This document shows, in pieces, positions 9,252 through 26,015 of a stretch of DNA of 64,000 nt. Position 1 is the first letter of the stretch. Each line of letters starts with the position of its first letter. The stretch is from a virus. Its lineage: Duplodnaviria > Heunggongvirae > Uroviricota > Caudoviricetes. Below the pieces are notes generated by a model. It was not told the DNA's origin and searched no databases. It worked only from the letters and a program-made list of their open reading frames with translations. The stretch lies in the IMG/VR virus record IMGVR_UViG_3300029305_004380, positions 2,042 to 66,041 of that record. One strand, 5' to 3'. Both the position numbers and the translations under genes were made by a program.

Positions 9252-9266
9252 TCATATTCACTCCTA

Positions 9267-9976: not shown

Positions 9977-9977
9977 A

Positions 9978-10289: not shown

Positions 10290-10294
10290 TTTAC

Positions 10295-10552: not shown

Positions 10553-10563
10553 TTAAATTCACC

Positions 10564-10938: not shown

Positions 10939-11161
10939 TGTATCATCTCCTTTTAATCAATATTGTCAAGTGCATCGATTAATCTTTCATACGACAATGA
11001 TCTTTCAACTCCAAAAACTTCTACGTCATCATCACTTCTTTTTCCACTACTTAATTTTTCAATTGATTCATTTAGCATCGATATTATATTTTTTGCATCT
11101 TCTATTGATAGTGTTATATTTTTCATATTTAGTATCTCCTTTACAACTATAATCTATTACA

Positions 11162-11190
11162 ATTATAACACATTCTTTTATAATTGTAAA
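11162..11190 (-). promoter_or_regulatory. sigma-A-type promoter P1 inside a conserved approximately 70 bp cassette
   Basis: Read on the minus strand: TTTACA at 11190-11185, a 17 bp spacer ending TGT, and TATAAT at 11167-11162. The cassette (about 11150-11225) also carries the upstream direct repeat TTACAATTATAA. Confidence 0.6.
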
Positions 11191-11271
11191 CCGTTTTTTT
11201 ATAATTGTAATTAAACTGTAATATTATTTATCTATTAGCTTTTCAATATTTTTATTATTTGACATAATTAC

Positions 11272-12525
11272 TCACTCCGATGACTTAAAATTATATACAG
11301 GCTTAATAAGCTTTATAATCTCTACTGTATCTTCAATATTATTTACAATATCATTAATATTCTTATATGCTTGAGGAGATTCATCGAGAGTACCTTCATT
11401 AATACATGTAGAATAAATACCTGTCATAGATTCTGCAAAATCAGAAAGACTAATAGTTTCTTTAGCTTTACCTCTACTCATTAATCTACCAGCACCATGA
11501 GGAGCTGAATTATTGTAATCCTCGTTTCCTTTACCTTTACAAATAAGAACTCCATCTCTCATATTAATAGGAATAACTAACATTTGTCCTTCATAAGCAG
11601 CGACCGCACCTTTTCTAATTATGTTATCATCTCCAATATAATTATGAATCGTATCAAACCATTCGGTCTTAATATTATATTTCCCTTTTTGTTTAATTCT
11701 TAACTTTCCACTAGTAGATAATTGAACTTGACAATCATTGAAATAATTCTTTATAAGTTCTTCAGCGATTGTAAATCTATTCAGTGCAGCGTATTTCTGA
11801 CAAATTCTCATATCATGTAAATATTTATCTTTATCTTCACCAATAAGATAAAGTAAATTTTTAGGAATCTTATCTAACTTTGACTTATAATTATTTATGG
11901 CTTCTTGAATATCAGATTCCCTTCCAGATGCTTTCATTTCTGCTATTAAGGAATTTATATTATTCTTATCTTCTTCCTTTCCAGCTTTATTTTGATAATA
12001 CTTACATACGTCTAATCCTAAATGTCTAGAACCAGTATGAATCATAAGATATTTGTTTCCTTCAAAATCTTCATCAATTTCACAAAAATGATTCCCCGAA
12101 CCAAGCGAGCCGATAGCTCTTAATACTTTATCATATTGATGTTTTACCACATCTTTATAACAATACATATTTTCAAGTTCGTCAAATTTCTTTTTCTGTT
12201 TTGAATTAACTTCAAATCCGAAAGCAACATTTTCACGAAGTATTTTATCAAATCTCTTATAATCTATATCAACATTTCCTAATGGAATTGTTAGTACACC
12301 ACAACCAATATCGACTCCAACTAAATTAGGAACTACTTTATCTCCTAAATTAGCTGTAAATCCTATAACACATCCTGCTCCAGCGTGACAATCAGGTTGA
12401 ATTCTTATTTTACAACCTTCAACAAAAGGCTGATTTAATAATTGTATTATCTGACATATACACTCATCTTCTATAACATCTGTAAATACTTTAGCAGTAC
12501 CATATTTTCCTTTAAGTTCTAACAT
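11272..12525 (-). CDS. rtcB: RtcB-family RNA 3'-phosphate/5'-OH ligase (417 aa after start trimming)
   Basis: RtcB signatures QPDCHAGAGCVIG, VGVDIGCGV and GSGNHFCEID. The start is reassigned to the ATG at 12525 (MLELKGK...), which has a GGAGG ribosome-binding site and overlaps the stop of the upstream gene. The ORF-track N-terminus at 12570 is a read-through artefact. Confidence 0.85.
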   Translation of the reverse strand: MLELKGKYGTAKVFTDVIEDECICQIIQLLNQPFVEGCKIRIQPDCHAGAGCVIGFTANLGDKVVPNLVGVDIGCGVLTIPLGNVDIDYKRFDKILRENVAFGFEVNSKQKKKFDELENMYCYKDVVKHQYDKVLRAIGSLGSGNHFCEIDEDFEGNKYLMIHTGSRHLGLDVCKYYQNKAGKEEDKNNINSLIAEMKASGRESDIQEAINNYKSKLDKIPKNLLYLIGEDKDKYLHDMRICQKYAALNRFTIAEELIKNYFNDCQVQLSTSGKLRIKQKGKYNIKTEWFDTIHNYIGDDNIIRKGAVAAYEGQMLVIPINMRDGVLICKGKGNEDYNNSAPHGAGRLMSRGKAKETISLSDFAESMTGIYSTCINEGTLDESPQAYKNINDIVNNIEDTVEIIKLIKPVYNFKSSE

Positions 12526-12526
12526 T

Positions 12527-12838
12527 TTATTCCTCCACTTTTGTAGGTTTATAAAGAGTAGCATCTTCAAGTTCTTCTAAATCGTAAATAATGCTATTAA
12601 GTTTATCTATTACAAGTTCATTAACTTTAAATCCATTTTTATCAATAATACGTTTATCATAACTTATATGATGAATAGCTTCATCTATTCGGCTATATGC
12701 TTCTTTTATTAACCCTTTATATTTTTTATTTTCATTTTCATCTCTTGGAGTTATTTCATAAGCTTTCATAATGTTAATCCTCTCTATAATAAATTCTATA
12801 ATTTTTAAATATAACTCTATTAATAAGTTTAGTCCCAA
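12527..12838 (-). CDS. hypothetical protein (103 aa)
   Basis: ORF track; its stop abuts the rtcB start. Confidence 0.5.
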   Translation of the reverse strand: MGLNLLIELYLKIIEFIIERINIMKAYEITPRDENENKKYKGLIKEAYSRIDEAIHHISYDKRIIDKNGFKVNELVIDKLNSIIYDLEELEDATLYKPTKVEE

Positions 12839-13530
12839 TATGCGTTAATATTTTCATAATCAGGATAATTTTCTTTCATATAAGCGTCTAACTTTACTCT
12901 TAAAGCATCTTTTATCTTATTATCACTGTCATAATCACCTACAGGTGGTATACACTCTGTACTAAAAATAACTATTTCACCATCTTTTACAATTCCTTGA
13001 TAATCTGAATTTTTCCACACTTCATAATCAGAACTTTCATCTGCAACACGAGTCACAATAGTTTGATATCTTGTATTAAAGTTGATAAATGCATCTCTAT
13101 CATAAAATGCAGCTTTATAAAAGAAATCTGCTCTCTTTTTTCCCTTATTGTCAAATAAATTATTCCACATTGAATGGTCCGTTGCTTCAATTTTCCAACC
13201 TTCAGGAAGTACTACATTATAAAATAAATCGTCGCACTCATCAACAATAACAATTCCCATTTTCTCATATTGTTGTCTTGTGTATTTAATGTTATTTTGC
13301 ATAATAATCTTGTGTCTTTCTTCCCATTCCATTGAATCCTCTACACCGTTCCATCTTACCTCATTTGGCAGACAAACGTCATTTAACTTCTTTGGTAGTC
13401 TTTGATTTCTTACAACTGATTGTTGACCTCTTCTTTCCTGATTTTCAATAGCTTTAGAAGGATTTTCACCTTCCATTGCATATAGTATTGCATCCATAAA
13501 AGTAATCATATTATCATTATTCATTTTCAT
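12829..13530 (-). CDS. hypothetical protein (233 aa)
   Basis: ORF track. Confidence 0.5.
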   Translation of the reverse strand: MKMNNDNMITFMDAILYAMEGENPSKAIENQERRGQQSVVRNQRLPKKLNDVCLPNEVRWNGVEDSMEWEERHKIIMQNNIKYTRQQYEKMGIVIVDECDDLFYNVVLPEGWKIEATDHSMWNNLFDNKGKKRADFFYKAAFYDRDAFINFNTRYQTIVTRVADESSDYEVWKNSDYQGIVKDGEIVIFSTECIPPVGDYDSDNKIKDALRVKLDAYMKENYPDYENINAYWD

Positions 13531-13536
13531 TCTCCT

Positions 13537-13821
13537 TTAATTAAAATTAGGTTCGTATTTGACAGCTTTTTGTTCTTTAGTATATTCTACTTTACCACAT
13601 TTCTTACAAGTTCTACTCCATCTATCCACTTTCTTTTCAGTATGACCAACTAATTCAGGATAATAATCTGATCCTTGGAATCTTGTCTCATATCTTGGTT
13701 CTTTTACTATTTCCGGGTCAAACTTTACTTTATCCCATTCATGACAACAATTAGATTGTTCTCTATGTAGTTCTCTTAATTCTCTTTCATATCTAGCTCT
13801 TATTTCTTCTTCTCTTGTCAT
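13537..13821 (-). CDS. zinc-ribbon protein (about 94 aa, start trimmed to the second ATG)
   Basis: CCHEW...CKKCGK motif. A GGAGG ribosome-binding site lies 8 nt upstream of the ATG at 13821. The upstream 18 nt of the ORF-track call is the ribosome-binding region. Confidence 0.5.
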   Translation of the reverse strand: MTREEEIRARYERELRELHREQSNCCHEWDKVKFDPEIVKEPRYETRFQGSDYYPELVGHTEKKVDRWSRTCKKCGKVEYTKEQKAVKYEPNFN

Positions 13822-13835
13822 AATTAAACCTCCAA

Positions 13836-13955
13836 TCATATATATTTACATTTTCTAAAGTTTTGACATTTTCGACATCTAACCCAGTATAAATATTCTT
13901 TACCTTTGGTTATTTTACTTAATTCTTTACAAGATTTATTCATCATATCTTTCAT
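13836..13955 (-). CDS. 39 aa Cys-rich miniprotein (MKDMMNKSCKELSKITKGKEYLYWVRCRKCQNFRKCKYI)
   Basis: Manual translation; the start follows a tandem TAA TAA stop of the upstream small gene. The stop TGA lies in the ribosome-binding-site region of the next gene. Confidence 0.3.
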   Translation of the reverse strand: MKDMMNKSCKELSKITKGKEYLYWVRCRKCQNFRKCKYI

Positions 13956-13959
13956 ATTA

Positions 13960-14127
13960 TTATTCATCAAATTCATCAAATTCATTCACTTCTTCTTTTA
14001 ATTCTTCTAAACAATTTCTACATAATGGAATTCTAATACCATTTACTATCAAAACACCTTTAGTGGTGTTTCCACATATATCGTAGTTTTCATCAAAGTA
14101 ATCTTTTACTTCTAATTTAATAGACAT
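13960..14127 (-). CDS. 55 aa zinc-ribbon miniprotein with acidic FDEFDE tail
   Basis: Manual translation gives MSIKLEVKDYFDENYDICGNTTKGVLIVNGIRIPLCRNCLEEL... A GGAGG ribosome-binding site lies 8 nt upstream. The ATG follows the stop of gene 14131..14349. Confidence 0.35.
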   Translation of the reverse strand: MSIKLEVKDYFDENYDICGNTTKGVLIVNGIRIPLCRNCLEELKEEVNEFDEFDE

Positions 14128-14130
14128 GAT

Positions 14131-14349
14131 TTATTCCTCCAATTCATAATTATGTACTCTACTATAATCTATATTTTCACCCAACCATGACAACATTGTA
14201 GAAGTTAATTCTCCATCAATATATAGATTTACTATCCCGCTATGAATACTTCCATCACTAGCAATTGCAACTTTTTCAAAATTAAATATTTCAAACGTTC
14301 GTCCATCTTTTAAATAACCTTTTGAATTTACGTTTATAATTACCGTCAT
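14131..14349 (-). CDS. hypothetical protein (72 aa)
   Basis: ORF track. Confidence 0.45.
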   Translation of the reverse strand: MTVIINVNSKGYLKDGRTFEIFNFEKVAIASDGSIHSGIVNLYIDGELTSTMLSWLGENIDYSRVHNYELEE

Positions 14350-14412
14350 ATGATACTCCTTATTTGAATAACTGCTTTCTAAGATTTTTATTATTTAAAT
14401 ATTTTTCTTATA

Positions 14413-14688
14413 TTAATAAAATTCTTTTTCAAGACGAATATTATTTTCTTTTACTAATAAACTGAGTTTTTCTTTTTCACAAACCAATTTATTATATTTA
14501 TCTTCAAACATCTTATATTTTTCACAAGTTTTATCGTACGAATTAAAACATTTTATTGCATCGCCTGCCCATTCAATATCTTCATTAATCTTTTTAATCT
14601 GATTTAAAAGTCTCTCTTGACTTCTAATTAATTTTTCAAATTCTTCAAATGAACCATTCTTCCATTTTAACATTTGTTCTAAAGTCAT
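14413..14688 (-). CDS. hypothetical protein (91 aa after trimming; first gene behind P2)
   Basis: Start moved to MTLEQMLKWKNG at 14688, which has an AAGGAGG ribosome-binding site. The upstream 50 codons of the ORF-track call run through promoter P2 and a terminator hairpin. Confidence 0.5.
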   Translation of the reverse strand: MTLEQMLKWKNGSFEEFEKLIRSQERLLNQIKKINEDIEWAGDAIKCFNSYDKTCEKYKMFEDKYNKLVCEKEKLSLLVKENNIRLEKEFY

Positions 14689-14719
14689 TTTATTAACCTC
14701 CTTTATATTTTCTAATATA

Positions 14720-14748
14720 ATTATAACATAAAAATTTATAATTGTAAA
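14720..14748 (-). promoter_or_regulatory. sigma-A-type promoter P2 inside the conserved cassette
   Basis: Read on the minus strand: TTTACA at 14748-14743, a 17 bp spacer ending TGT, and TATAAT at 14725-14720. The start of gene 14688 lies about 30 nt downstream. Confidence 0.65.
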
Positions 14749-14784
14749 CCCTTTTCTTATAATTGTAATAAAACTGTAAAAATA

Positions 14785-14815
14785 AAAGGAGTCTCTTATG
14801 AGACTCCTTTTTATA
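14785..14815 (-). terminator. intrinsic terminator hairpin (GGAGTCTC / GAGACTCC) with flanking A and T runs
   Basis: An 8-10 bp GC-containing stem and a 6 nt loop. A-run on one side and T-run on the other, so it is bidirectional. It is immediately upstream (in transcription order) of the P2 cassette. Confidence 0.6.
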
Positions 14816-15137
14816 TTAATAATATTTAAACTATACACTATATTTTTAATAACTTATCATATAAACAAAACAAACAAATAACTAAAAATCTAATTTATAC
14901 TCATTTTTACTCGGCACAATACATTTACATTCACTTCATAATAAACTTTAAAGAGGTAATCTATATCAAATAGTTTAAATATTATGATTATATTTTATTA
15001 TTAATTTTATCTATTAATAACTGTTTACAAATATTTAATGCAATCACCCATTCAGAATTTATATATTCATCCGATTCAATATAATCATTTATTAATCTTA
15101 TAATTTCTTGATAAGTCATTTCATATCACATCTTTCA

Positions 15138-15659
15138 TCATAATTGAGGTAACATTTCCAATAATTCTTCAATCTTATTTTTAGTATTATCAGATAATAT
15201 CATTTTATCTTTATTATTATCATACCAATGCTTTGCAGTACTTTTAGGATTATTATATTTAAATGATGACCAATCACATAACATTTCTATAATACAATTT
15301 AAAGGCATATCTAATATTTTTTGTTCACCTGAATCTTTTTGTAAAATCCAATATTGCCAATGATGATCATTACATTTTTGATGATGGTTCCAAGCTTCAT
15401 CATATAATGCTTCATTATCGGCACCTGCTTTAGATGGATAAAAATGATGCAAATATGGATAAAATTCTACATCATCATACTTAGATGCATCATGATTATT
15501 TATTTTATGTTCTAATTCATGCTCATTAAAATCAAACATTGTTAAAAGATCATCTTTTATAGATTCATAAGATTTCTTAACGCCATCTATATGATTTTCT
15601 AAATATTTATAATATTCTTCAGATCTATCAGATACTCTTTCAGTTAATATTTTCAACAT
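15138..15659 (-). CDS. HD-like metal-dependent hydrolase family protein, paralogue A (173 aa)
   Basis: Shares the motifs HD-x-SK, LHH, HHW(Q/E)YW and (L/I)CDW with 18677..19219. Confidence 0.5.
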   Translation of the reverse strand: MLKILTERVSDRSEEYYKYLENHIDGVKKSYESIKDDLLTMFDFNEHELEHKINNHDASKYDDVEFYPYLHHFYPSKAGADNEALYDEAWNHHQKCNDHHWQYWILQKDSGEQKILDMPLNCIIEMLCDWSSFKYNNPKSTAKHWYDNNKDKMILSDNTKNKIEELLEMLPQL

Positions 15660-15674
15660 TTATTTTCTCCTTTA

Positions 15675-15716
15675 AAAAATAAACATGAGACATTTTAATC
15701 ATGTCTCATGTTTAAT
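15675..15716 (-). terminator. intrinsic terminator, 13 bp stem (AAACATGAGACAT / ATGTCTCATGTTT)
   Basis: Perfect inverted repeat flanked by A and T runs. It sits between the HU gene and the next gene. Confidence 0.6.
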
Positions 15717-15720
15717 AAAA

Positions 15721-15996
15721 TTATTCATTTATAAGTTTTCTTACAGTAGGTGAAAATCTAAATTTAGGATTTTTCTTAGCAGGACTTACTTTTTCTTCAC
15801 CTGTTTTTGGGTTTCTTACTACTCTTTCAGGTTGATCTATTGCTTCAAATTTTCCAAAACTATAAATTTCTACCTTTTCACCATTCTTTAAATTTTCATT
15901 TACTAATTGTACAAATGTATCAATAACCCCTGTAACAGTGTTAATTGATTCTCCTGTAGATATTGCAATCTTTTCGATTAATTCTTGTTTTTTCAT
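15721..15996 (-). CDS. HU/IHF-family histone-like DNA-binding protein (91 aa after start trimming)
   Basis: MKKQELIEKIA...FGKFE...RNPKTGEE is a classic HU signature. A GGAG ribosome-binding site precedes the ATG at 15996. Confidence 0.8.
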   Translation of the reverse strand: MKKQELIEKIAISTGESINTVTGVIDTFVQLVNENLKNGEKVEIYSFGKFEAIDQPERVVRNPKTGEEKVSPAKKNPKFRFSPTVRKLINE

Positions 15997-16022
15997 AATA
16001 TTTCTCCTTTTATTTAATAATA

Positions 16023-16325
16023 TCACTGCTTATTATATTCATCTAATGCTTTATAAATAGCAGTTTCAAACTTAACACGTGTATCAGCTGTAATAGGATG
16101 ATATATATCAAAAAATCCAGAAACCGGATTATTTTTTTCATCCAATGCAGTGATTTTTTGTGATGGAAATGCAATAAACTTTTTCTTATTTCCATTTTCT
16201 ATTTTTTCAATAACCCTAATATTATGCAAAACCATTTCATTGTCTATTAATACTGAAACTAATGCTTTAACAGGTTTAGTAGGATCATTATAAACTTTTT
16301 TTACTTGAACGCTTGTAATTATCAT
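16023..16325 (-). CDS. spoVG: SpoVG-like protein (100 aa)
   Basis: The pattern VxVL(I)DNEMVLHNIRVIE...FIAFPS...DIYHPIT(A)DTR matches the SpoVG family consensus. Confidence 0.7.
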   Translation of the reverse strand: MIITSVQVKKVYNDPTKPVKALVSVLIDNEMVLHNIRVIEKIENGNKKKFIAFPSQKITALDEKNNPVSGFFDIYHPITADTRVKFETAIYKALDEYNKQ

Positions 16326-16388
16326 GTCTTTTTATCTCCTTAATTATTTTTATATTTATATTTTATTATTTTAAATGTAAAAACGTAT

Positions 16389-17045
16389 TTAATAAATTAA
16401 TTCATTAATAGGAGTGTTATATTTACATATTTTCCAATTTGAACAAAATTTAGAATTATAATTACGTTTTAAACATAATATAGCTGCTTCATTTTCAGTG
16501 CAATTAACATTATATACTTCATTATAAAAGTCTATATTATTAATATTACTAATACTTATTTTATATGAATTATTTGAATTTTTAGTCTTATTAGCAAATC
16601 CTATATGAGTTCTATTAGTAGATATATAATAAAAAGTCCAATAATCTTTATATTTAGTAGTCGGATATAATAGTTCCCATATATATGAACTAAATTTATT
16701 TATTTTATTAGAAATTTTAGCATTATATTCATTAAGTTTAGTATCTATTTCATTATTATTTACGATATTTTGCTGCATAAAATAATTATCATTAATATTT
16801 AAACTAATAAATCTCATATCTTTACTTATTTTTAAAATATAATACAATTTACCATTTCTAAAATTACAATTAAAATATTTGTTTATTTTTCTTAAATCCG
16901 ATATATTCATTAATCTATAAAATAATATGTTAATACAATCTTCTTTCTCTTCTATAATCATATTTCGTACATTATCTATTTTTGTATTTAAACTTATACC
17001 AATTAATATTTTTAAATATTTTAAATTGTTTGCACTTATATTCAT
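16389..17045 (-). CDS. Asn/Ile-rich low-complexity protein (218 aa), unknown
   Basis: ORF track. Extremely AT-rich codons. Lies directly downstream of the MTase-like gene. Confidence 0.4.
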   Translation of the reverse strand: MNISANNLKYLKILIGISLNTKIDNVRNMIIEEKEDCINILFYRLMNISDLRKINKYFNCNFRNGKLYYILKISKDMRFISLNINDNYFMQQNIVNNNEIDTKLNEYNAKISNKINKFSSYIWELLYPTTKYKDYWTFYYISTNRTHIGFANKTKNSNNSYKISISNINNIDFYNEVYNVNCTENEAAILCLKRNYNSKFCSNWKICKYNTPINELIY

Positions 17046-17097
17046 AATAATTCTCCTCTAATGCTTATTTAATGTAATTTGGAATTATATAGTATAT

Positions 17098-18258
17098 TTA
17101 AATTAATTTATCTACATGTTGAAATTCATCTAATGTAAATTCATAAACTTTATTTTGAGTATGATTTTGAAATACAACATCTTTATCACTTATTATATTA
17201 TAATCGTTTGTAAATGTGTTCATTATTTCTTTAGAAATCCATTCTATAAATTTAACCGGAACACCTTGAGCTAAACATTGAATTGTAGGAATTTTACATT
17301 CATTAGGATAAAATATAAAATCATCCGGATAGCCCATTATTCTAGCATATTCTCTTATATATAAATCTCTATTTTCTACAGGATGAATAAATTGAGCTAA
17401 ACTAGTCATTGAAGGAGCCACTCCGTCAAAATCAAGTCTATATGAAGATTTATCCCATAATCTTTCTCCATTATTTTTCTTTTCAATAAAAGATTTTACT
17501 TGTTTTTTATGTTCATTCGGAATTTTTTCAATGTCTAGATTATTTAAATTGTTGTATAATCCACACATTAAAGATTCATTATGTTTTACATATCTATAAA
17601 ATTCTTCCATATTTTTAATAGCTCTGTTATTATCAAATTCCATATTGGGTGTGTCAGGAGTTAAACCTTCAAATATTTCTTTTATTGTTGTTTTATTTTG
17701 TTTAACAAATTTTATTTCAGGTATTTTTTCATATTTATTTTTATTCCAACCTACAATCATAGTTCTTAATCTTCTCATACTTACACCATGATTTCCAGCC
17801 ATATCTCGTATGATTGTAAATTTATACTTTTCACCTAATATATTCACCATATCTTTTAAAATAGGTAATCCTAAAGTCACGACTGTTGGTGCATTTTCTA
17901 TTAAAAATGTATCAGGATTTAAATGATTTATAATATCAAATACTTCATAAAATCTATTATTTACTTTATTATCTACTTTTGCATTTTTATTTATAGAACT
18001 TAATCCAGAGCATGGATTATTTGAATATAATAAGTTATAATGTTTTTCTTTTAAAGTGTCTAAGAATGCATTTTGAGACCACTCTGATGGTCTCTTAATA
18101 TTTATATTAGGATAATTCTTACAAAAATGATACGCATTAGTATCTGTCATATCTTCAGTCATTTCTAAAACAGTATCTATTTTCCATCCTGTATTTAAAT
18201 GTCCTATGGTCTGACTCCCAGAAAATATATATGCACCTATAGCTGATAATTCATTCAT
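17098..18258 (-). CDS. divergent C5-cytosine methyltransferase-fold protein (386 aa)
   Basis: C5-MTase motif order is recognisable: motif I-like IFSGSQTIG (glycines replaced), motif II LEMTED, motif IV NPCSGLS (PCQ becomes PCS), motif VI FLIENAPTV (ENV), motif VIII RRLRTMIVGW and C-terminal motif X-like QGVPVKFI. Confidence 0.7.
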   Translation of the reverse strand: MNELSAIGAYIFSGSQTIGHLNTGWKIDTVLEMTEDMTDTNAYHFCKNYPNINIKRPSEWSQNAFLDTLKEKHYNLLYSNNPCSGLSSINKNAKVDNKVNNRFYEVFDIINHLNPDTFLIENAPTVVTLGLPILKDMVNILGEKYKFTIIRDMAGNHGVSMRRLRTMIVGWNKNKYEKIPEIKFVKQNKTTIKEIFEGLTPDTPNMEFDNNRAIKNMEEFYRYVKHNESLMCGLYNNLNNLDIEKIPNEHKKQVKSFIEKKNNGERLWDKSSYRLDFDGVAPSMTSLAQFIHPVENRDLYIREYARIMGYPDDFIFYPNECKIPTIQCLAQGVPVKFIEWISKEIMNTFTNDYNIISDKDVVFQNHTQNKVYEFTLDEFQHVDKLI

Positions 18259-18282
18259 ATTTTATATTACTCCTTTTTAATT

Positions 18283-18657
18283 TCAATCTAACTCTATTCT
18301 ACCTATAAGATTTGGATGAATAATCATTTCCTTCATATAAGGAGTTAGATCGTAAAAATCATCTTCTCTTAATTTTTTAAATGGACTACACTCCATGCCT
18401 GCAAATAAAAATACACAAATTTCACTGTTATTATCACCTATAGGTTTTAATTTAATATCAGGCTTATTAGATCTACATGTAAAAATTAATCTATATTTTC
18501 TAAACCATTTGGTCATAAATTTAGGACCTTTAATAGTCATAAGATGTTTAATATTATTCTCTTTAGCAGTCCAATCACAAGTATGTATTATGTAATCTTC
18601 ATATATTTTTATTTCGTGTCCATTTGCACCCATGTGAGTATTTATTATTTTATCCAT
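18283..18657 (-). CDS. hypothetical protein (124 aa)
   Basis: ORF track. Confidence 0.5.
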   Translation of the reverse strand: MDKIINTHMGANGHEIKIYEDYIIHTCDWTAKENNIKHLMTIKGPKFMTKWFRKYRLIFTCRSNKPDIKLKPIGDNNSEICVFLFAGMECSPFKKLREDDFYDLTPYMKEMIIHPNLIGRIELD

Positions 18658-18676
18658 GTTTTCTCCTTAGTTAATT

Positions 18677-19219
18677 TCATTTTTCATATGTTTTTTCATA
18701 TTTTTTAATAATATCTTTTAACTTAAATCTACCAGAGCTATAATCATGTAATACATTAAATAAAAATGTATAAGTATCTAAATGTATTTTTATTTTACCA
18801 CTATTGTATAATCTATTAAAAGTTTTAAAAGGAATATCACAGGTCCAATTATCTTTATTATATGCTTTTCCAGCTCCTATCCAATCACATATCATTTCTT
18901 TAACATATTTAATTGGCATTTTTAATGCTTCTCCACCTGAAGAAAGATTATCAATCCAATATTCCCAATGATGTGGATTTCTTCCTCTATGATGTAACCA
19001 TGCGTATGAATATCCTTTTTCATCTTTTTCATTATCAATTGGACTTCTATCACCTGTATAATATTTAGCAGAATTAAAAAATTCAGAAAAACTAAATTTA
19101 GACCAATCATGCATAAATCCTCTAAAAGGAATTCCAGCTTCAACAGATGCTAAAAACACATAATATTTATGTCTGTTTATTATAGCAAAATGTTTTAATA
19201 ATTTTTTATAATATTTCAT
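18677..19219 (-). CDS. HD-like metal-dependent hydrolase family protein, paralogue B (180 aa)
   Basis: H-x25-HD-x-SK, WLHH, HHWEYW and ICDW motifs shared with 15138..15659. Confidence 0.5.
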   Translation of the reverse strand: MKYYKKLLKHFAIINRHKYYVFLASVEAGIPFRGFMHDWSKFSFSEFFNSAKYYTGDRSPIDNEKDEKGYSYAWLHHRGRNPHHWEYWIDNLSSGGEALKMPIKYVKEMICDWIGAGKAYNKDNWTCDIPFKTFNRLYNSGKIKIHLDTYTFLFNVLHDYSSGRFKLKDIIKKYEKTYEK

Positions 19220-19731
19220 TTAGTTCTCCCATTTAACTCATTCATCTTATTTTTAGCATTGTCTATATCAAAAAATATTCTTAATCCCATTGATCTTGAT
19301 AATCTATATGCAGTTTTAATATATGAATTTTTTGTCTGCAACATAACTTTCCAACCTAAACTCGATCTATAGTAAATTTTATCTATGTAAGCTTCTTCAA
19401 TTGTGTATTTACCATTTTTAATTTTCTTAATAACGAATACTGTAAGTCTTTTATTTTGAATATCTATCAAATGTGGAATCGTTAAATAAGCAATTGTATT
19501 GTCATAATTATTTATTCTATCAAGTTTTCTTAAATAATCTAAAGGACCCATACAATTATCCCATAGTAGATCCGAGTAATAATGTTTCTTTTTTAATGAT
19601 TTTTTAAAAGTATTAACTTCTAATTCATTCTTACATTTTTCTATGTACACTTCTGCAGATATTCCATTCACCATGTCTAATGCATACATCTTTGCTTCTT
19701 TTTTAATTTTCTTTAAATTTGTTAAGTTCAT
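19216..19731 (-). CDS. hypothetical protein (171 aa)
   Basis: ORF track. Confidence 0.5.
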   Translation of the reverse strand: MNLTNLKKIKKEAKMYALDMVNGISAEVYIEKCKNELEVNTFKKSLKKKHYYSDLLWDNCMGPLDYLRKLDRINNYDNTIAYLTIPHLIDIQNKRLTVFVIKKIKNGKYTIEEAYIDKIYYRSSLGWKVMLQTKNSYIKTAYRLSRSMGLRIFFDIDNAKNKMNELNGRTK

Positions 19732-19814
19732 AATTTATTTCTCCTTTATATTAAATTTTTATAAATAAACTTCCTATTATTTATAATAGTACACGTATTA
19801 AAATATTATTTTTA

Positions 19815-19848
19815 TTAAAAAAACTCCAAATTTTATTTGGAGTTTTTT
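19815..19848 (-). terminator. intrinsic terminator (AACTCCAAA / TTTGGAGTT) overlapping the stop of the SpoIIID-like gene
   Basis: A 9 bp stem and 5 nt loop, followed by a T7 run in the minus-strand reading. Confidence 0.6.
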
Positions 19849-20093
19849 AGTATTAAATATTTGTGTTTAGTTGCCATGCCACCACGAATATGTTTATCTT
19901 TAAAATTTGATGCAACTAATTTTCTAACTTTTTGATATAATCTTTTATCAATGTATGGTAATTTATAAAGAAAATCGTATGACAATGTAGATTTACCAAT
20001 TCCAAACACTTTAGCAGTTTTTCGTATTGTAGATTTATTATCTACGTAATAAATTGCACAAGCTTTTATTCTATTCTCAAGTTGTTCGTTCAT
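19833..20093 (-). CDS. spoIIID: SpoIIID-like HTH transcriptional regulator (about 86 aa, start trimmed)
   Basis: AKVFGIGKSTLSYD...LP...KHIRGGMATKHKY matches the SpoIIID family (AKEFGVSKSTVHKD...IRHxRGGxATKxKY). A GGAG ribosome-binding site lies 9 nt upstream of the ATG at 20093. Confidence 0.7.
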   Translation of the reverse strand: MNEQLENRIKACAIYYVDNKSTIRKTAKVFGIGKSTLSYDFLYKLPYIDKRLYQKVRKLVASNFKDKHIRGGMATKHKYLILKNSK

Positions 20094-20142
20094 ATAAATC
20101 AACTCCTTTAATTATATTTTATTAAAGGAATCAATAAATATA

Positions 20143-21183
20143 TTATTCTTCATCGTCTTCAAATTTTGGATTTTCTAATAATAAATTATCCACTTTTAAT
20201 TTTATACTATTAAACAATTCAATATCATTATTTAAAGCATCTAACACCTTAGCTTGTCCTTGCCATTTATATTCTTTTTCATTTACTTTTGCATCAAACC
20301 ACGCTCCACCTTTATGAATCACTCCGAATTTAAGAGCTAAATCTAATAAATCTATATCTGTTCTTATTCCATTTCTGTAAAATAAAGAGCATTTAGATAT
20401 TCTTCTATCTGAAGGACATGTTTTTGATTTTACCAATTTTACTTCTATTAAATGACCTTGAGGATTTTCAGATGAACTTGAAATTTCATTGCCTTTTTCA
20501 TCAAGAAATTTTCCTTTACGAGTCATATAACGTTGAGAACATGCAAACTTCCAAGCTCTACCTCCAGGAGTAGTGATAGGATTGTACATATTACCTATAT
20601 TTTCTCTAACTTGATTTATTCCTATAAAACAAATATTATTCCTCTTTATAATAGGTGTGCACTGGTTTACAAATTGTGTTAATGGTAATGCTATTCCACC
20701 ATATGTTTTATCTTCAAATGATTTTTCAGAAGCTTGTTTAGAAAACATTGCTCCTATAGAATCTAAAATCATTAATCCGAAAGCTTCAGTTTCCATAGCT
20801 GCTTTTACTTGATCGAATATTTCTTCAGCGTATTGTCCTATACAATTTAATATAATAACTTTACTAGAATCAACGCCCATATGAGAAGCCCATTTTGCAT
20901 CATAAGTGCCTTCAACATCTATATATAAAATATATTCGTCCGGCCACAATTTTTGAAAATTAGCCATAATATCTAAACACAAGGTTGATTTTCCAGATGA
21001 TTCTTCACCATAAAATTCTATAATTCTTCCTCTTGGAACACCACCATAACTCATATAGTTTAATCTTAAACTGGAAAACGGAATTAAATCTAATTCTTTT
21101 TCTTCCATACCTAATTGTACAATTTCAGAACCATATTGTTTATTTACTTTTTTCATCCAATCCATTAAATTTGTATTAGTCAT
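20143..21183 (-). CDS. recA: RecA recombinase (bacterial type, 346 aa)
   Basis: Walker A GEESSGKST and Walker B ILDSIGA motifs. The L2-region FIGINQVRENIG...TPGGRAWKF and C-terminal HKGGAWF motifs align along the whole length with bacterial RecA. Confidence 0.9.
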   Translation of the reverse strand: MTNTNLMDWMKKVNKQYGSEIVQLGMEEKELDLIPFSSLRLNYMSYGGVPRGRIIEFYGEESSGKSTLCLDIMANFQKLWPDEYILYIDVEGTYDAKWASHMGVDSSKVIILNCIGQYAEEIFDQVKAAMETEAFGLMILDSIGAMFSKQASEKSFEDKTYGGIALPLTQFVNQCTPIIKRNNICFIGINQVRENIGNMYNPITTPGGRAWKFACSQRYMTRKGKFLDEKGNEISSSSENPQGHLIEVKLVKSKTCPSDRRISKCSLFYRNGIRTDIDLLDLALKFGVIHKGGAWFDAKVNEKEYKWQGQAKVLDALNNDIELFNSIKLKVDNLLLENPKFEDDEE

Positions 21184-21258
21184 GTATTTGTAACTCCTTT
21201 ATAAGATAATTTTAAATAAAATCTTTATAATATTTATAATCATTTATTTTAAAATTGT

Positions 21259-21882
21259 TTATTTAAACCTCTTATCTTTTTGTTTACGCGATTTTAATAT
21301 ATATTTTTTATAATCATTATAATCTTTAAATTTGATATATTCACCAGAATAAACATCAAAACATGAATTATCTGCACATAATTCATATGAATTTGTTGAA
21401 CACACAATGAACACATCTTTATCCTTATTATGTTCATCTTCCATAATTGTTTTAAATAAATATTCTTTTATTTCAATAGCATTATCTATGCTTAAACCTG
21501 AATCTATAGCATCAAATAAAATCCATAATTCTTTACTATTTTTATGTTGCTGTACAAACCTTGCAATTTTGCCTGCTATAATACCAAGATTAATATATAT
21601 TTGTTCACCTTCAGATGATTGCATCAGTGTAGCTGCAGTAGTTATATCATCCTCATAAACTCTTTCAGATATTGATGTTGCTCCACCTTCATATTCATTA
21701 CTATAATATATTACTGGGATTTTAGATGATTGCAAAGACTCTTTAATTGATTGTAATAAAGTAGTTTTTCCAGATCCATTGCATCCTATTAAAATAGTAA
21801 CACCTGGATTTATTTCGATTTCTGATTTTTTATAAATGATATCATCGTATGGTTTTCTTGTAATTTTAAAAAATCTACTCAT
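21259..21882 (-). CDS. small ABC-type/SMC-like P-loop ATPase (207 aa)
   Basis: Walker A GCNGSGKTT, ABC-signature-like SEGEQ and Walker B ILFDAID motifs. Confidence 0.55.
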   Translation of the reverse strand: MSRFFKITRKPYDDIIYKKSEIEINPGVTILIGCNGSGKTTLLQSIKESLQSSKIPVIYYSNEYEGGATSISERVYEDDITTAATLMQSSEGEQIYINLGIIAGKIARFVQQHKNSKELWILFDAIDSGLSIDNAIEIKEYLFKTIMEDEHNKDKDVFIVCSTNSYELCADNSCFDVYSGEYIKFKDYNDYKKYILKSRKQKDKRFK

Positions 21883-21894
21883 TTTATGGACTCC

Positions 21895-22221
21895 TTATTC
21901 AATTCTTATAGCTCTATCATCCCAATATTCATTAGCAAAAATTTTAGGACTATTCATTGGAACTTCTGGATTTTCATTATAATATTTAGGAATAATAGTT
22001 ATAGGCATATTCATTATGCACCATTCTTTAGCAGCATTTAATGTTTCACCACTTCTACAAGTCCATAAAATAATTACTAATTCTTGTCCTCGTTTATTTA
22101 CTTCAACATTTTTATCTAACAAATGTTTAATAGTATTTTCTTTTATATTTCCTATTGCAGGATAGTTATGTTCTACTAATGTTCCATCAAAATCAAGAGC
22201 TATATAATATTTATCATACAT
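21895..22221 (-). CDS. small HAD-superfamily phosphatase-like protein (108 aa)
   Basis: N-terminal ALDFDGTL matches the DxDGT HAD motif I; a C-terminal DDR is also present. Confidence 0.4.
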   Translation of the reverse strand: MYDKYYIALDFDGTLVEHNYPAIGNIKENTIKHLLDKNVEVNKRGQELVIILWTCRSGETLNAAKEWCIMNMPITIIPKYYNENPEVPMNSPKIFANEYWDDRAIRIE

Positions 22222-22828
22222 TTTTTACAATCTCTCCTATCATTTCAATCCACCTATTATAGGTTTTTAAATATTCTTCATTAGATATTTCAGTGTATAA
22301 ATCTATTTCTCTTTTACGTTGTCCAGAGTTATCCATTAAATTACAAAACCAACCTATGCTTTCAGTATGAAGTGAAAAAATTTCTTCATACATGTTTTTA
22401 CTCTTAAATGATTTTATAGGAAGATTAAAAACCAAAGTATTCATTTTATATGGATTATTTTCTTCAACATTTAAAATCTTATAATATGCAATAGTTTCTT
22501 CATTTATAAGTCTTTTAAATGTTTTTCCAATATATTCTATATTATTAGCTATATCTTTTTTAGTTTGTTCACAATAATATTTATTAATTTGTTCATTTAA
22601 TTCATCTCTCTGTTTTTCTAAAATTTTAATATCTACTTCATCTTCATCTATCAAATTAATATCTTCTATAAGTTTTGTATTTCCATTTTCTAAAATAATT
22701 AGTTCCGATTTTGATACCCATTTAATCCAGCGATTACATTTTTGACAGTATAATCCAGTGTGAAAATCACCATAACTTAAACGTCCAAGTGTGGGTCCAC
22801 ACTTTTTACATATAGTTTCAATATTCAT
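22214..22828 (-). CDS. zinc-finger protein (204 aa)
   Basis: N-terminal CKKCGP...CQKCNRW motif. Confidence 0.5.
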   Translation of the reverse strand: MNIETICKKCGPTLGRLSYGDFHTGLYCQKCNRWIKWVSKSELIILENGNTKLIEDINLIDEDEVDIKILEKQRDELNEQINKYYCEQTKKDIANNIEYIGKTFKRLINEETIAYYKILNVEENNPYKMNTLVFNLPIKSFKSKNMYEEIFSLHTESIGWFCNLMDNSGQRKREIDLYTEISNEEYLKTYNRWIEMIGEIVKNV

Positions 22829-22842
22829 AATTACTCATTCCT

Positions 22843-23163
22843 TTAATACTTTATTTCATCAGGTGTTAATTTAACAGCTTTTTCTTTTAATTTTTTCACA
22901 TATCGTATTCCTTTATCGTTTACTTTTATTTTAAGTAAACTATCATCTTCTGAAAGTTTCCGCATTTGTTCAGTAATTGGAATTCTATAAGCCATATATA
23001 AATTTTTATAAAATACACTTTCCGAACATTCATCTGCTTTATCACCAGTATAATTTTCAAAAGATTCTGCAGTGCAATCGAATGTTTCTACTTCATAATC
23101 ACCTGAAGGAATACCGATTAATACTTTAGTATTTCTTTTAAATAAAATATCAATAATCTTCAT
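22843..23163 (-). CDS. hypothetical protein (106 aa)
   Basis: ORF track. Confidence 0.5.
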   Translation of the reverse strand: MKIIDILFKRNTKVLIGIPSGDYEVETFDCTAESFENYTGDKADECSESVFYKNLYMAYRIPITEQMRKLSEDDSLLKIKVNDKGIRYVKKLKEKAVKLTPDEIKY

Positions 23164-23179
23164 AATATATATTCCTCAT

Positions 23180-24181
23180 TTACTTATTGAATTTAATAGC
23201 ATTTTCATTAAATAAAGTATTATCACATTCCACAAAATAGTCAAATAGTGGTAACGCTAACTCTCTCATTTGAGGATGAGCAGCTTTGTCACATCTTAAT
23301 TCAAAGAAATGTCCCCATTCATAATTATGAGCAGTCATTATAATTTCAGTTTTTAAACTGTTACCAAGTACACTTCTAGCTTCTTGAGGAGTAGCTCCTA
23401 ATTCTAATAACTCAAAGTATGCTTTTTCTGAAGCTTTTATTGCATCTCTCCAAACATGATACTTGTTTCTTTCAACACTTTGAAGTTCTGCTTCACCATC
23501 AAACATTAATGGGTCAATCACCGTGATATTATTATCAAATTTATCTTTAGAATAATTACAATATCTTGTAGATTCTTGAGCATATGAAGAATCCCTATGT
23601 CTAACGATTTCATGTGATACACCTCTATCACAAATAAATTTAATAGATTTCCATCCGTGCATCCATTGTTCTTCTGGAATTAATGTATTAATATCATCGA
23701 TTTTAGTCCAATTATTTCTATGTACTTTTTTAAATTTATTACCAAATAATTCATCACAATCATAATCTAAGACTATTTGCTCACATAATTCAATTAAATG
23801 TTCTTTCATATAACTATTAGTCTTATAAGCTTCTAATAAATCTAAAAGAGACCTTGCGCTAAACGACAATATATATCTTAATTTTGTTTCAAAATTACCT
23901 TCATCATTACATGAAATAATTTCTGTCGTACTAGATGTTATATATTTTTCATTACTTAATATTTTAAAAAATAAATTATTAGGAGTATTACATTGATATA
24001 CAAATATAAAATGTTCTAACATCGCCCAATGTTTTTTATCATATAAATTTTTAATCATTTTTTTATGACTTTCATCAGTTATTAAATCTTCTGATTTATA
24101 ACAAATTCTTGCAATTTTTTCAATATGTTTTTGAGGATTGTCATCATACATTTCTTTAAATGACGGCTTTATAATTTTCAT
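23180..24181 (-). CDS. thyX: flavin-dependent thymidylate synthase ThyX (333 aa)
   Basis: ThyX signature RHRDSSYAQESTRY (RHR-x6-QESTRY). A GGAG ribosome-binding site is present. Confidence 0.85.
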   Translation of the reverse strand: MKIIKPSFKEMYDDNPQKHIEKIARICYKSEDLITDESHKKMIKNLYDKKHWAMLEHFIFVYQCNTPNNLFFKILSNEKYITSSTTEIISCNDEGNFETKLRYILSFSARSLLDLLEAYKTNSYMKEHLIELCEQIVLDYDCDELFGNKFKKVHRNNWTKIDDINTLIPEEQWMHGWKSIKFICDRGVSHEIVRHRDSSYAQESTRYCNYSKDKFDNNITVIDPLMFDGEAELQSVERNKYHVWRDAIKASEKAYFELLELGATPQEARSVLGNSLKTEIIMTAHNYEWGHFFELRCDKAAHPQMRELALPLFDYFVECDNTLFNENAIKFNK

Positions 24182-24195
24182 AATTTATCTCTCCT

Positions 24196-24900: not shown

Positions 24901-24963
24901 TTCTTTTTATCCTTTTTATTTCTTTTCTTATATAATATAATAGACTAAATTATAAAAAATTAT

Positions 24964-25997: not shown

Positions 25998-26015
25998 ACT
26001 TTTTTCTCCTTATAA

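What the first reader, a model, noticed from the sequence alone, without database searches (positions are those of the whole stretch)
17098..18258. C5-cytosine methyltransferase fold with a degenerate SAM-loop and PCS instead of PCQ
All ordered C5-MTase motifs are recognisable: FSG..., ED, PC, ENV, RRxR..IVG and a motif X-like C-terminus. The glycine-rich motif I (FxGxGG) reads FSGSQTIG, and the catalytic-loop PCQ is PCS. An enzyme that keeps the nucleophilic Cys but alters the cofactor loop could use a different one-carbon donor or act as a non-methylating C5 modifier. In a phage that may already make modified dCMP at the nucleotide level, its role is unclear (anti-restriction methylase, or a hypermodification step). 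It is flanked by two paralogous HD-like hydrolase genes (15138..15659 and 18677..19219) and an Asn/Ile-rich gene of unknown function (16389..17045). Together these could form a modification cassette or an RM-like pair.
Basis: partly seen in the sequence, partly recalled or inferred. Interest (0 to 1): 0.65.

Follow-up and report, generated by a model that had tools for sequence, protein, structure and literature searches.

The report
Phage-only cytosine methylase variant, hmC-linked
The gene encodes a real but strongly remodelled cytosine-C5 DNA methyltransferase-type enzyme from a small phage-only clade that sits beside the genes that put hydroxymethylcytosine and sugars into phage DNA, so its reaction may not be plain methylation and has never been tested.

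The parts
17098..18258 (-). 386-aa enzyme with a C5-cytosine DNA methyltransferase fold; member of a divergent, phage-restricted clade
   Evidence: An AAAGGAG RBS lies upstream of the ATG at 18258.
18214..18231 (-). Motif I variant Y-I-F-S-G-S, equivalent to HhaI F18-x-G20-x-G22-G23. The first Gly is Phe and the third is Ser.
   Evidence: Register taken and from the helix start. Coordinates checked.
18160..18165 (-). Motif II E32-M33, the ribose-binding Glu, equivalent to HhaI E40-W41 (mapped to E40 by me, not by the aligner). I recall E-M in DNMT1; this was not checked.
   Evidence: E32 is conserved in 97% of 120 homologues. Coordinates checked.
18103..18108 (-). Motif III-like N51-I52. The family has N or D here, at the position I take to be the adenine-N6 contact (HhaI D60-I61).
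   Evidence: coordinates checked. The position assignment is an inference from the alignment.
18007..18015 (-). Motif IV P82-C83-S84: the catalytic Cys, with Ser in place of the canonical Gln
   Evidence: N80, P82, C83, S84, G85, L86 and S87 are invariant in 120 of 120 homologues. Q82 is present in 91% of 117 control MTases.
17887..17898 (-). Motif VI E121-N-A-P: Glu kept, Val replaced by Ala
   Evidence: Invariant in the family. V121 is present in 98% of controls.
17764..17778 (-). Motif VIII M161-R-R163-L-R165: both Arg kept, Gln replaced by Met
17254..17271 (-). Motif X variant A330-Q331-G-V-P-V. Q331 is at the HhaI N304 / CmoX R350 position that lines the pocket for the transferred group.
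   Evidence: the role of this position in CmoX is.
49525..50451 (-). Thymidylate-synthase homologue with the dCMP-hydroxymethylase signature: Cys in 'DDDTPC', L143 to D, D169 kept, N177 to D
   Evidence: signature criteria from PMC13326640. It scores far below the NCBIfam ThyA cut-offs.
36855..38135 (-). DNA glycosyltransferase (PF20691 TAGT; also PHROG beta-glucosyl-HMC-alpha-glucosyltransferase). It is 47% identical to the TAGT about 2 kb upstream of the MTase gene in L006.
36193..36735 (-). dUTPase-family protein in the pyrimidine module
38152..38874 (-). dCMP deaminase
23180..24181 (-). ThyX, a bona fide flavin-dependent thymidylate synthase, so the TS homologue above is not needed for dTMP synthesis
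   Evidence: 109 bits against a cut-off of 87.9.
15138..15659 (-). DUF5662 paralogue 1: local context only, not a conserved partner
18677..19219 (-). DUF5662 paralogue 2: local context only, not a conserved partner
16389..17045 (-). 218-aa Asn/Ile-rich ORF of unknown function, directly downstream. Next to the MTase gene only in the window and in L003; in L005 its homologue lies about 3 kb downstream.

Best explanation
The gene encodes a member of a small clade of C5-cytosine DNA methyltransferase-fold enzymes that is restricted to phages. The clade forms part of the 5-hydroxymethylcytosine / glycosyl-hmC DNA-modification module of large, low-GC phages.

**Proposed mechanism**
- The enzyme flips a cytosine out of duplex DNA.
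- Glu121 and Arg163/Arg165 hold the base, and Cys83 attacks C6. This step is inferred from invariant catalytic residues and the fold.
- An adenosyl-containing cofactor is bound through Tyr10, Glu32-Met33 and Asn51-Ile52. This is inferred.
- The enzyme most likely transfers the methyl group of SAM to C5 of cytosines that entered the DNA as plain dC. These are sites the nucleotide-level hydroxymethylation pathway missed.
- It would therefore complement hmC and glycosylation in shielding the genome.

The remodelled residues (G20F, G23S, Q82S, V121A, Q161M, G303A, N304Q, S305G in HhaI numbering) would then be a co-adapted variant of the SAM and base pocket, not a change of chemistry.
For: **Fold and catalytic machinery**
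- Pfam E=3e-26.
- C83, E121, N122, R163 and R165 are invariant in 120 homologues.

**Cofactor side**
- The adenosine-side residues are conserved: Y/F10, E32, I52 and G14. Residue 51 is N or D in the sequences inspected.
- Q82S together with N304Q looks like a relocated amide. It recurs even in the 25%-identity outlier L027, which still has a canonical first Gly and PQxRxR.
- Active SAM methylases with deviant motifs I and IV exist, such as DNMT3A (my own knowledge).

**Genomic context**
- In 19 of 25 family loci the gene lies on the same strand as, and 0.2-8.8 kb from, a dCMP-hydroxymethylase-type TS homologue. The figure is 4 of 36 for canonical viral C5-MT loci.
- It lies 0-21 bp from alpha-GT-, beta-GT- or TAGT-type DNA glycosyltransferases in several lineages.
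- GATC and CTAG avoidance in the window suggests the DNA is not fully shielded from restriction.
Against: - If C is fully replaced by hmC, as in T4, no C5-H substrate is left in phage DNA.
- Eight positions that are 89-98% conserved in 117 control C5-MTases are all changed. They include the first glycine of the SAM loop and the two residues (Q82, N304) that line the pocket for the transferred group.
- The clade is never seen in cellular R-M systems.
- The protein scores below the NCBIfam dcm cut-off (62.8 against 100.65).
- TET-associated phage C5-MTs with disrupted motifs VIII-X gave no methylation in E. coli (PMC8256090).
- Nanopore 5mC calling on phage G found only 31 sites. The tool used is not suited to this question.
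Confidence: 0.45

Rival explanations
1. The enzyme uses the same covalent C6-attack chemistry but a different donor. The remodelled methionine and methyl side of the pocket (F12, S15, S84, Q331, G332) would bind a SAM derivative, or would present another group of SAM. A non-methyl substituent would then be installed at C5, as CmoX does with carboxy-SAM.
For: - CmoX shows that changing the HhaI-N304 position switches the cofactor. The same position is invariantly Gln here.
- Q82 is Ser and the first Gly of the SAM loop is Phe.
- The adenosine contacts are kept, so an adenosyl cofactor is still expected.
Against: - There is no Arg or Lys at position 331, and the SPPC motif is absent (N-N-P-C), so it is not CmoX.
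- No CmoA-like or other cofactor-synthesis gene recurs next to the gene.
- The problem of having no C5-H substrate in hmC DNA remains.
Confidence: 0.17
2. The chemistry is conditioned by hmC. One option is that the enzyme acts on 5hmC in phage DNA, activating C6 with Cys to exchange or process the 5-substituent. The other is that it is aimed at unmodified (host or competitor) DNA, with the phage's own hmC acting as immunity. In that case it would methylate, deaminate or crosslink host cytosines. This would be analogous to the T4 functions that target cytosine-containing DNA (Alc, EndoII, EndoIV).
For: - The gene co-occurs tightly with the dCMP-hydroxymethylase homologue across lineages that share little else.
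- Base-side residues are changed to smaller ones (Q82S, V121A, S305G).
- The clade is phage-only.
- In vitro, C5-MTases can act on 5hmC and can deaminate C without SAM (Liutkeviciute et al. 2009/2011 and Bhagwat lab work; my own knowledge, not checked here).
Against: - There is no natural precedent.
- The adenosine-binding residues are conserved, which argues for a SAM-type cofactor.
- No direct evidence was obtained here.
Confidence: 0.15
3. It is an ordinary orphan anti-restriction 5mC methylase with no functional tie to hmC. It merely sits in the nucleotide-metabolism and replication gene block of these phages.
For: - Replication genes are also nearby: primase, PolA or PolB, clamp, RecA.
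- In the window the gene is 19-31 kb from the GT and the TS homologue.
Against: - Adjacency to three different GT families and to the TS homologue recurs in architectures that otherwise differ.
- Canonical phage C5-MT loci rarely have a TS homologue nearby (4 of 36).
- The motifs are systematically remodelled.
Confidence: 0.15
4. This is the first reader's cassette: the methylase forms an RM-like or toxin-antidote pair with the 218-aa gene. Alternatively, it forms a modification cassette with the two DUF5662 genes.
For: The genes are contiguous and co-oriented with short gaps in the window and in L003; in L005 the directly downstream gene is a different 225-aa ORF.
Against: - These neighbours are missing next to the gene in L006-L027, L064 and phage G.
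- In L005 the 218-aa homologue lies about 3 kb away, not adjacent.
- There are no nuclease, PADLOC, Pfam or PDB matches.
Confidence: 0.03
5. It is a catalytically inert DNA-binding relic.
For: The SAM loop is non-canonical, and the score is below the NCBIfam cut-off.
Against: About 50 invariant residues, including every catalytic one, are kept across a clade that diverges to 25-40% identity.
Confidence: 0.05

Closest known systems
Prokaryotic and phage C5-cytosine DNA methyltransferases (PF00145; M.HhaI, M.HaeIII, the prophage CP-933R protein 3g7u)
   Same: - Same fold and the same motif order (I, II, IV, VI, VIII, TRD, IX, X).
- Catalytic Cys, ENx Glu and RxR arginines.
- RE-A-R-MG(Y/F)PD motif IX.
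   Different: - Eight near-universal positions are changed together: G20F, G23S, Q82S, V121A, Q161M, G303A, N304Q, S305G.
- There is a conserved extension of about 40 aa at the C-terminus.
- Never found in cellular R-M contexts.
- Scores below the NCBIfam dcm cut-off.
CmoX, the phage DNA cytosine C5-carboxymethyltransferase (PDB 8YF3; Nat Commun 2025, PMC12783734)
   Same: - A phage C5-MTase homologue whose motif X residue at the HhaI-N304 position is changed.
- It feeds a hypermodification pathway.
   Different: - CmoX has Arg at that position, an SPPC motif and a neighbouring CmoA.
- Here the residue is Gln and the motif is N-(N/P)-P-C-S.
- No CmoA was seen.
- The partners here are a dCMP hydroxymethylase homologue and glycosyltransferases.
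TET-associated phage C5-MTs with TAGT or other GTs (Burke et al. 2021, PMC8256090; bioRxiv 10.1101/2023.12.21.572611)
   Same: - A C5-MT gene is clustered with a DNA glycosyltransferase, including the PF20691 TAGT family.
- The end product is glycosylated hmC.
   Different: - No TET/JBP gene is present.
- hmC is predicted to come from a nucleotide-level TS homologue, so the methyl group is not needed as a precursor.
T4-type hmC system (gp42 dCMP hydroxymethylase, gp1 kinase, alpha- and beta-glucosyltransferases)
   Same: - A TS homologue with the N177D and L143D signature.
- A dNMP-kinase fusion in some relatives.
- alpha-GT and beta-GT homologues.
   Different: - T4 has no C5-MTase-fold enzyme.
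- The presence of one here is the unexplained element.
Bacillus phage G gp301 (annotated 'DNA cytosine methyltransferase')
   Same: - 41% identical over 98% of the length, with the same variant motifs.
- It lies near alpha-glucosyltransferase genes and a glucose-1-phosphate nucleotidyltransferase gene.
- It is the only cultured carrier of the clade.
   Different: - It has not been characterised.
- Phage G DNA shows an unexplained PFGE mobility anomaly that has been attributed to base derivatisation.

Membership tests
C5-cytosine DNA methyltransferase superfamily (PF00145 / Dcm) | Overall fold (Rossmann-like catalytic domain plus TRD) | tested here: met
C5-cytosine DNA methyltransferase superfamily (PF00145 / Dcm) | Score above the curated family thresholds | tested here: inconclusive
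   Pfam: 93.1 bits against 22, passed. NCBIfam TIGR00675 dcm: 62.8 bits against 100.65, not passed.
C5-cytosine DNA methyltransferase superfamily (PF00145 / Dcm) | Motif IV Pro-Cys nucleophile, motif VI Glu, motif VIII Arg-x-Arg | tested here: met
   P82-C83, E121-N122, R163 and R165 are invariant in 120 homologues.
C5-cytosine DNA methyltransferase superfamily (PF00145 / Dcm) | Canonical SAM-side motifs: motif I F-x-G-x-G-G, motif IV PCQ, motif X G-N-(S/A)-V | tested here: not met
   The motifs here are Y-I-F-S-G-S, P-C-S and A-Q-G-V. The canonical residues are present in 89-98% of 117 controls.
C5-cytosine DNA methyltransferase superfamily (PF00145 / Dcm) | SAM-dependent formation of 5-methylcytosine in DNA | not testable with these tools
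   This needs biochemistry or methylome data.
CmoX (Cx-SAM-dependent DNA C5-carboxymethyltransferase) | Arg at the HhaI-N304 position (R350), together with the SPPC motif | tested here: not met
   Q331 is invariant, and the motif is N-N/P-P-C-S.
CmoX (Cx-SAM-dependent DNA C5-carboxymethyltransferase) | Phage-encoded CmoA (Cx-SAM synthase) and CmoY ligase in the same genome | tested here: inconclusive
   None appears among the Pfam-annotated neighbours of five family loci. None appears among the roughly 45 window ORFs scanned. Not every window ORF was scanned.
TET/JBP-coupled C5-MT hypermodification cassette | A TET/JBP (5mYOX) dioxygenase gene adjacent to the C5-MT gene | tested here: not met
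   There is no Tet_JBP hit in the neighbour lists of L003-L008 or among the scanned window ORFs. The recurrent neighbour clusters are a TS homologue, GTs, dUTPase and dCMP deaminase.
Type II restriction-modification pair | A conserved adjacent restriction endonuclease, and occurrence in cellular genomes | tested here: not met
   The adjacent 218-aa gene is not conserved outside close relatives and has no nuclease match. There is one family member in 185,579 species genomes, on a phage-like contig.
T4-type nucleotide-level hmC pathway (context of the gene) | A TS homologue with N177D (dCMP), L143D/E (hydroxymethyl) and D169 retained | tested here: met
   Window protein 49525..50451 has 'DDDTPC' and 'RSCDIWFGLPND'. 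All TS homologues aligned from family loci have Asp at the N177 position, apart from one second, ThyA-type copy in L025.
T4-type nucleotide-level hmC pathway (context of the gene) | hmC actually present in virion DNA, and the extent to which it replaces dC | not testable with these tools
   Only indirect evidence exists: the PFGE anomaly of phage G DNA.

The most novel reading that the evidence does not exclude
The clade would be a natural C5-MTase-fold enzyme whose remodelled cofactor and base pocket carries out chemistry other than plain cytosine methylation, tied to hydroxymethylcytosine DNA.

There are two versions:
- It installs a non-methyl group from an unusual adenosyl donor.
- It is an hmC-conditioned enzyme that processes 5hmC, or that attacks only unmodified (host or competitor) cytosines while the phage's own hmC confers immunity.

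Either version would add a new enzyme to phage DNA hypermodification or host-takeover biology.
Probability: 0.3. Interest if true: 0.85.

Novelty: new variant of a known kind. Interest (0 to 1): 0.62.

Why it matters
- **The paradox.** Phages that replace cytosine with hydroxymethylcytosine should have no use for a cytosine-C5 methyltransferase. Yet a dedicated, strongly conserved and remodelled one travels with the hmC and glycosylation genes. It does so in very different large phages: the phage G group, a 532-kb megaphage contig, TGA-recoded phages and this window's lineage.
- **What solving it would show.** It could reveal partial or site-specific hmC replacement with a methylation back-up. 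That would be a new layer of anti-restriction logic. Alternatively, it could reveal a new reaction on a scaffold that has already produced one surprise, CmoX and carboxy-SAM.
- **Testability.** Phage G is cultured, so the question can be tested directly.
- **Possible applications.** Enzymes of this scaffold are tools for epigenome mapping, so a new specificity or donor could be useful.

Tried and rejected
- **Near-identical phage DNA.** Searching the phage collection for close DNA matches found nothing.
- **SAM pocket geometry.** I could not inspect it, because model coordinates are not exposed. Arguments about the pocket therefore rest on alignment to HhaI, 3g7u and CmoX.
- **CmoX membership.** Rejected, because the defining Arg is absent.
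- **TET-coupled cassette.** Rejected, because no TET gene is present.
- **R-M pair or DUF5662 cassette.** Rejected on synteny and the lack of any family match.
- **5-hydroxycytosine synthase reading of the TS homologue.** Rejected, because D169 is retained.
- **Literature.**
  - Searches for a described clade with these motifs, or for DUF5662, found nothing.
  - The MetaGPA paper does not mention methyltransferases.
  - The jumbo-phage survey lists DCMs without singling out this clade.
- **Phage G nanopore 'methylome'** (31 sites by a 5mC caller). I judged it uninformative for this question.
- **ORF 50494..51072.** I tested it as a possible dNMP kinase. It looks RuvC/YqgF-like instead.
- **CpG depletion** (0.53). 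This is common in low-GC genomes, so I did not take it as evidence of CpG methylation.
Full report
**1. The observation**

ORF 17098..18258 on the minus strand encodes 386 aa. Its ATG is preceded by AAAGGAG. Several lines of evidence identify it as a C5-cytosine DNA methyltransferase homologue:
- Pfam PF00145, E=3e-26, 93 bits.
- PHROG 'DNA methyltransferase' and PADLOC type II MTase models.
- Sequence matches to 3g7u, M.HaeIII, DNMT1 and M.HhaI in the PDB.
- An AlphaFold2 model built on 43 homologues, with mean pLDDT 93.3 and pTM 0.91.
- Foldseek E=1e-18 to 3g7u.

Two results point to divergence. The protein falls below the NCBIfam dcm cut-off (62.8 against 100.65 bits). The Pfam alignment starts only at residue 34, so motif I did not align.

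**2. The motifs**

The database search returned 329 homologues. The 120 listed are 46-59% identical to the window protein, apart from its own identical entry. In them the unusual residues are invariant or nearly so:

| Motif or region | Residues in this clade |
|---|---|
| N-terminus (motifs I-II) | G8, F12, G14, S15, Q16, E32 |
| Residues 48-49 | N48-Y49 |
| Motif IV | N80-x-P82-C83-S84-G85-L86-S87 |
| Motif VI | E121-N122-A123-P124 |
| Motif VIII | M161-x-R163-x-R165-T166 |
| Motif IX | R-E-Y-A-x-x-M-G-Y-P-D |
| Motif X | A330-Q331-G332-V333-P334-V335 |

Three things place the register two residues earlier: ungapped HMMER alignments to 3g7u, MAFFT alignments to HhaI, and the start of helix A at S15 in the model. 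So Y10=F18, F12=G20, G14=G22 and S15=G23.

This is a biased sample, rich in HhaI-like sequences. The clade differs from them at eight positions simultaneously:

| HhaI position | Canonical residue | Share of controls | Residue in this clade |
|---|---|---|---|
| 20 | G | 94% | F |
| 23 | G | 94% | S |
| 82 | Q | 91% | S |
| 121 | V | 98% | A |
| 161 | Q | 98% | M |
| 303 | G | 97% | A |
| 304 | N | 93% | Q |
| 305 | S | 89% | G |

The clade keeps the aromatic residue at position 18, and also G22, E40, P80, C81, E119, N120, R163 and R165. The D60 equivalent is N or D.

So the catalytic and base-holding residues and the adenosine contacts are intact. The residues around the methionine and methyl side of the cofactor, and next to C5 of the target base, are remodelled. 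The same signature holds in Bacillus phage G gp301 (41% identity) and down to about 30% identity. A 25%-identity outlier, L027, is intermediate: it has PCS and SQGVP, but a canonical first Gly and PQxRxR.

**3. Size and distribution of the clade**

- A profile search of 1.84 billion cluster representatives found only 48 at E<=1e-30. After that there is a sharp step to canonical C5-MTases at about 1e-29.
- Among 50,697 phage records, only phage G carries a member.
- Among one genome for each of 185,579 bacterial and archaeal species, there is one hit. It is a 17-kb contig in a MAG, and its neighbours look phage-like.
- All other hits were canonical enzymes at 27% identity or less.
- Many members lie on contigs of 100-530 kb.
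- Some carriers read TGA as Trp.

The clade is therefore phage-restricted and spans hosts that must be very different.

**4. Surroundings**

Both flanking genes match PF18907 DUF5662 and are paralogues. The 218-aa gene has no family match. However, they accompany the gene only in the closest relatives, L003 and L005. Even there, the 218-aa homologue of L005 is displaced by about 3 kb.

*Recurrent neighbours.* I clustered the neighbours of 24 family loci and ran targeted tblastn searches over 25 family loci. The recurrent partner is a thymidylate-synthase homologue:
- It is on the same strand, 0.2-8.8 kb away, in 19 of 25 family loci.
- The comparison figures are 4 of 36 canonical viral C5-MT loci and 1 of 79 genomic loci. 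The odds ratio is 25 and p=3.5e-7, but the loci are not phylogenetically independent.
- The six exceptions are relatives of the window and the phage G group.
- In the window itself the homologue lies 31 kb away, at 49525..50451.
- In phage G it is gp319, about 13 kb away.

*Signature of the TS homologue.* The criteria are summarised in PMC13326640. The TS homologues have Asp at the E. coli ThyA N177 position, which indicates a dCMP substrate. They have Asp at L143, which indicates a hydroxymethyl product. They retain D169, so they are not 5-hydroxycytosine synthases. The one exception is a second, ThyA-type copy in L025. Several are fused to a P-loop dNMP-kinase-like domain. The window also has a bona fide ThyX, a dCMP deaminase and a dUTPase.

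*Glycosyltransferases.* Next to the methylase-like gene sit DNA glycosyltransferases of three different families:

| GT family | Loci | Distance from the MTase gene |
|---|---|---|
| PF09198, T4 beta-GT-like | L008, L010, L012 | 4 bp |
| PF11440, alpha-GT-like | L011 | 21 bp |
| PF11440, alpha-GT-like | L013 | next gene upstream in the ORF map (seen by clustering only) |
| PF11440, alpha-GT-like | phage G group | 1.4-2.7 kb |
| PF20691, TAGT | L014 | abutting |
| PF20691, TAGT | L006 | about 2 kb |
| PF20691, TAGT | window (36855..38135) | about 19 kb |

The same gene paired with interchangeable GT families in otherwise different architectures argues strongly for functional coupling to an hmC and glycosyl-hmC pathway. 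No TET/JBP gene was seen.

**5. How it most likely works**

*Shown.* The fold is shown, as are the conservation of the Cys, Glu and Arg catalytic set and the adenosine contacts, the remodelling of the cofactor and base side, the restriction to phages, and the linkage to the dCMP-hydroxymethylase and GT genes.

*Inferred.* The enzyme flips cytosine and attacks C6, and it binds an adenosyl cofactor.

*Best guess (0.45).* It is a SAM-dependent 5mC methylase that covers cytosines incorporated as plain dC. It would complement hmC and glycosylation.
- The Q82S and N304Q changes may be a compensatory relocation of an amide.
- DNMT3A (my own knowledge) shows that deviant motifs I and IV can coexist with SAM use.
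- GATC (observed/expected 0.32) and CTAG (0.44) avoidance in the window suggests the DNA is still exposed to restriction.

*Against.* Full C replacement would leave no substrate. The extent of remodelling is unusual. Some divergent TET-associated phage C5-MTs were inactive as methylases.

*Rivals.*
- Another donor, following the CmoX logic. In CmoX the residue at the N304 position contacts the carboxymethyl group of Cx-SAM, and wild-type CmoX accepts only Cx-SAM. Confidence 0.17.
- hmC-conditioned chemistry, acting either on 5hmC or on non-hmC host DNA. Confidence 0.15.
- An unlinked ordinary orphan methylase. Confidence 0.15.
- An inert relic. Confidence 0.05.
Confidence 0.03.

**6. Comparison with known systems**

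- It belongs to the C5-MTase superfamily by fold and catalytic motifs. It fails the canonical SAM-side motif definitions and one curated threshold.
- It is not CmoX: there is no Arg at the N304 position, no SPPC motif, and no CmoA was seen.
- It is not a TET-coupled MT, because there is no TET gene.
- It is not an R-M methylase.
- The closest characterised analogue in system logic is the T4 hmC pathway, which has no such enzyme.
- Phage G gp301 is annotated as a cytosine methyltransferase but has not been studied. The phage G multi-omics preprint attributes the long-known PFGE size anomaly to DNA derivatisation. It reports only 31 sites from a 5mC caller.
- The jumbo-phage survey (PMC7824862) and my other literature searches do not describe this clade.

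**7. Verdict**

Altered cofactor-side chemistry is possible and has a precedent, but is untested. The proposed cassette with the flanking genes is not supported. The true conserved partners are the dCMP-hydroxymethylase homologue and the DNA glycosyltransferases. I class this as a new variant of a known kind and score interest at 0.62. The paradox of a C5 enzyme in hmC phages can be tested directly in phage G.

Noticed in passing
window 1..64000: GATC is strongly under-represented (49 observed against 154 expected, ratio 0.32). CTAG is also low (0.44), and the CpG odds ratio is 0.53 with an excess of TG and CA. GC content is about 25% (22-29% across 2-kb blocks), and GC skew is negative throughout. 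Almost all long ORFs are on the minus strand.
   Followed up: partly
window 41858..43159 (-): A 433-aa protein has an N-terminal PemK/MazF-like toxin domain (E=3e-20) fused to a long region with no annotation. A stand-alone PemK-like gene is also present in the relative L003.
   Followed up: no
window 23180..24181 and 49525..50451: The phage carries both a bona fide ThyX and a divergent ThyA-family homologue with the dCMP-hydroxymethylase signature. The relatives L018, L019 and L021 also have both.
   Followed up: partly
L008:8001-9185, L010 and L012: The MTase ORF contains 3-4 in-frame TGA codons. In L008 they fall where the called product (P0095) has Trp, two of them at conserved Trp positions (the G-W and W-D-K-S motifs). 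These phages therefore read TGA as Trp.
   Followed up: yes
window 15721..16325 (-), also L003, L005, L007, L018, L019, L021: A SpoVG homologue and an HU-like DNA-binding protein form a conserved pair downstream of the MTase gene in several lineages. A SpoIIID-like regulator and RecA lie upstream.
   Followed up: no
L006:3441-4754, and the L008/L010-L014 equivalents: In other carriers the dCMP-hydroxymethylase homologue is fused to an N-terminal P-loop dNMP-kinase-like domain ('GLDAAGKTT'). In L018-L025 the two parts are separate genes.
   Followed up: partly
window 17098..17208 (residues 350-386 of the MTase): The clade has a C-terminal extension of about 40 aa. It contains three short strands and a helix, with Q364 and F379 invariant. 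Its role is unknown.
   Followed up: no
window 38152..38874 (-): The dCMP deaminase is 240 aa, with an N-terminal extension of about 80 aa. It gives a weak match to the NCBIfam 'anti-phage dCTP deaminase' model, far below the cut-off.
   Followed up: no
window 15138..15659 and 18677..19219; L003, L005: DUF5662 occurs as two paralogous copies per genome in this phage lineage. The copies share a conserved H-D-x-S-K ... H-H ... H-H-W-x-Y-W ... C-D-W pattern. I found no literature and no structural match by sequence.
   Followed up: partly
window 11272..12570, 51435..53450, 56514..57230: An RtcB-like RNA ligase is inferred from clustering with the PF01139 gene of L007. An NAD-dependent DNA ligase with a BRCT domain and a sigma-70 region-2 protein are also encoded in the window.
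   Followed up: no
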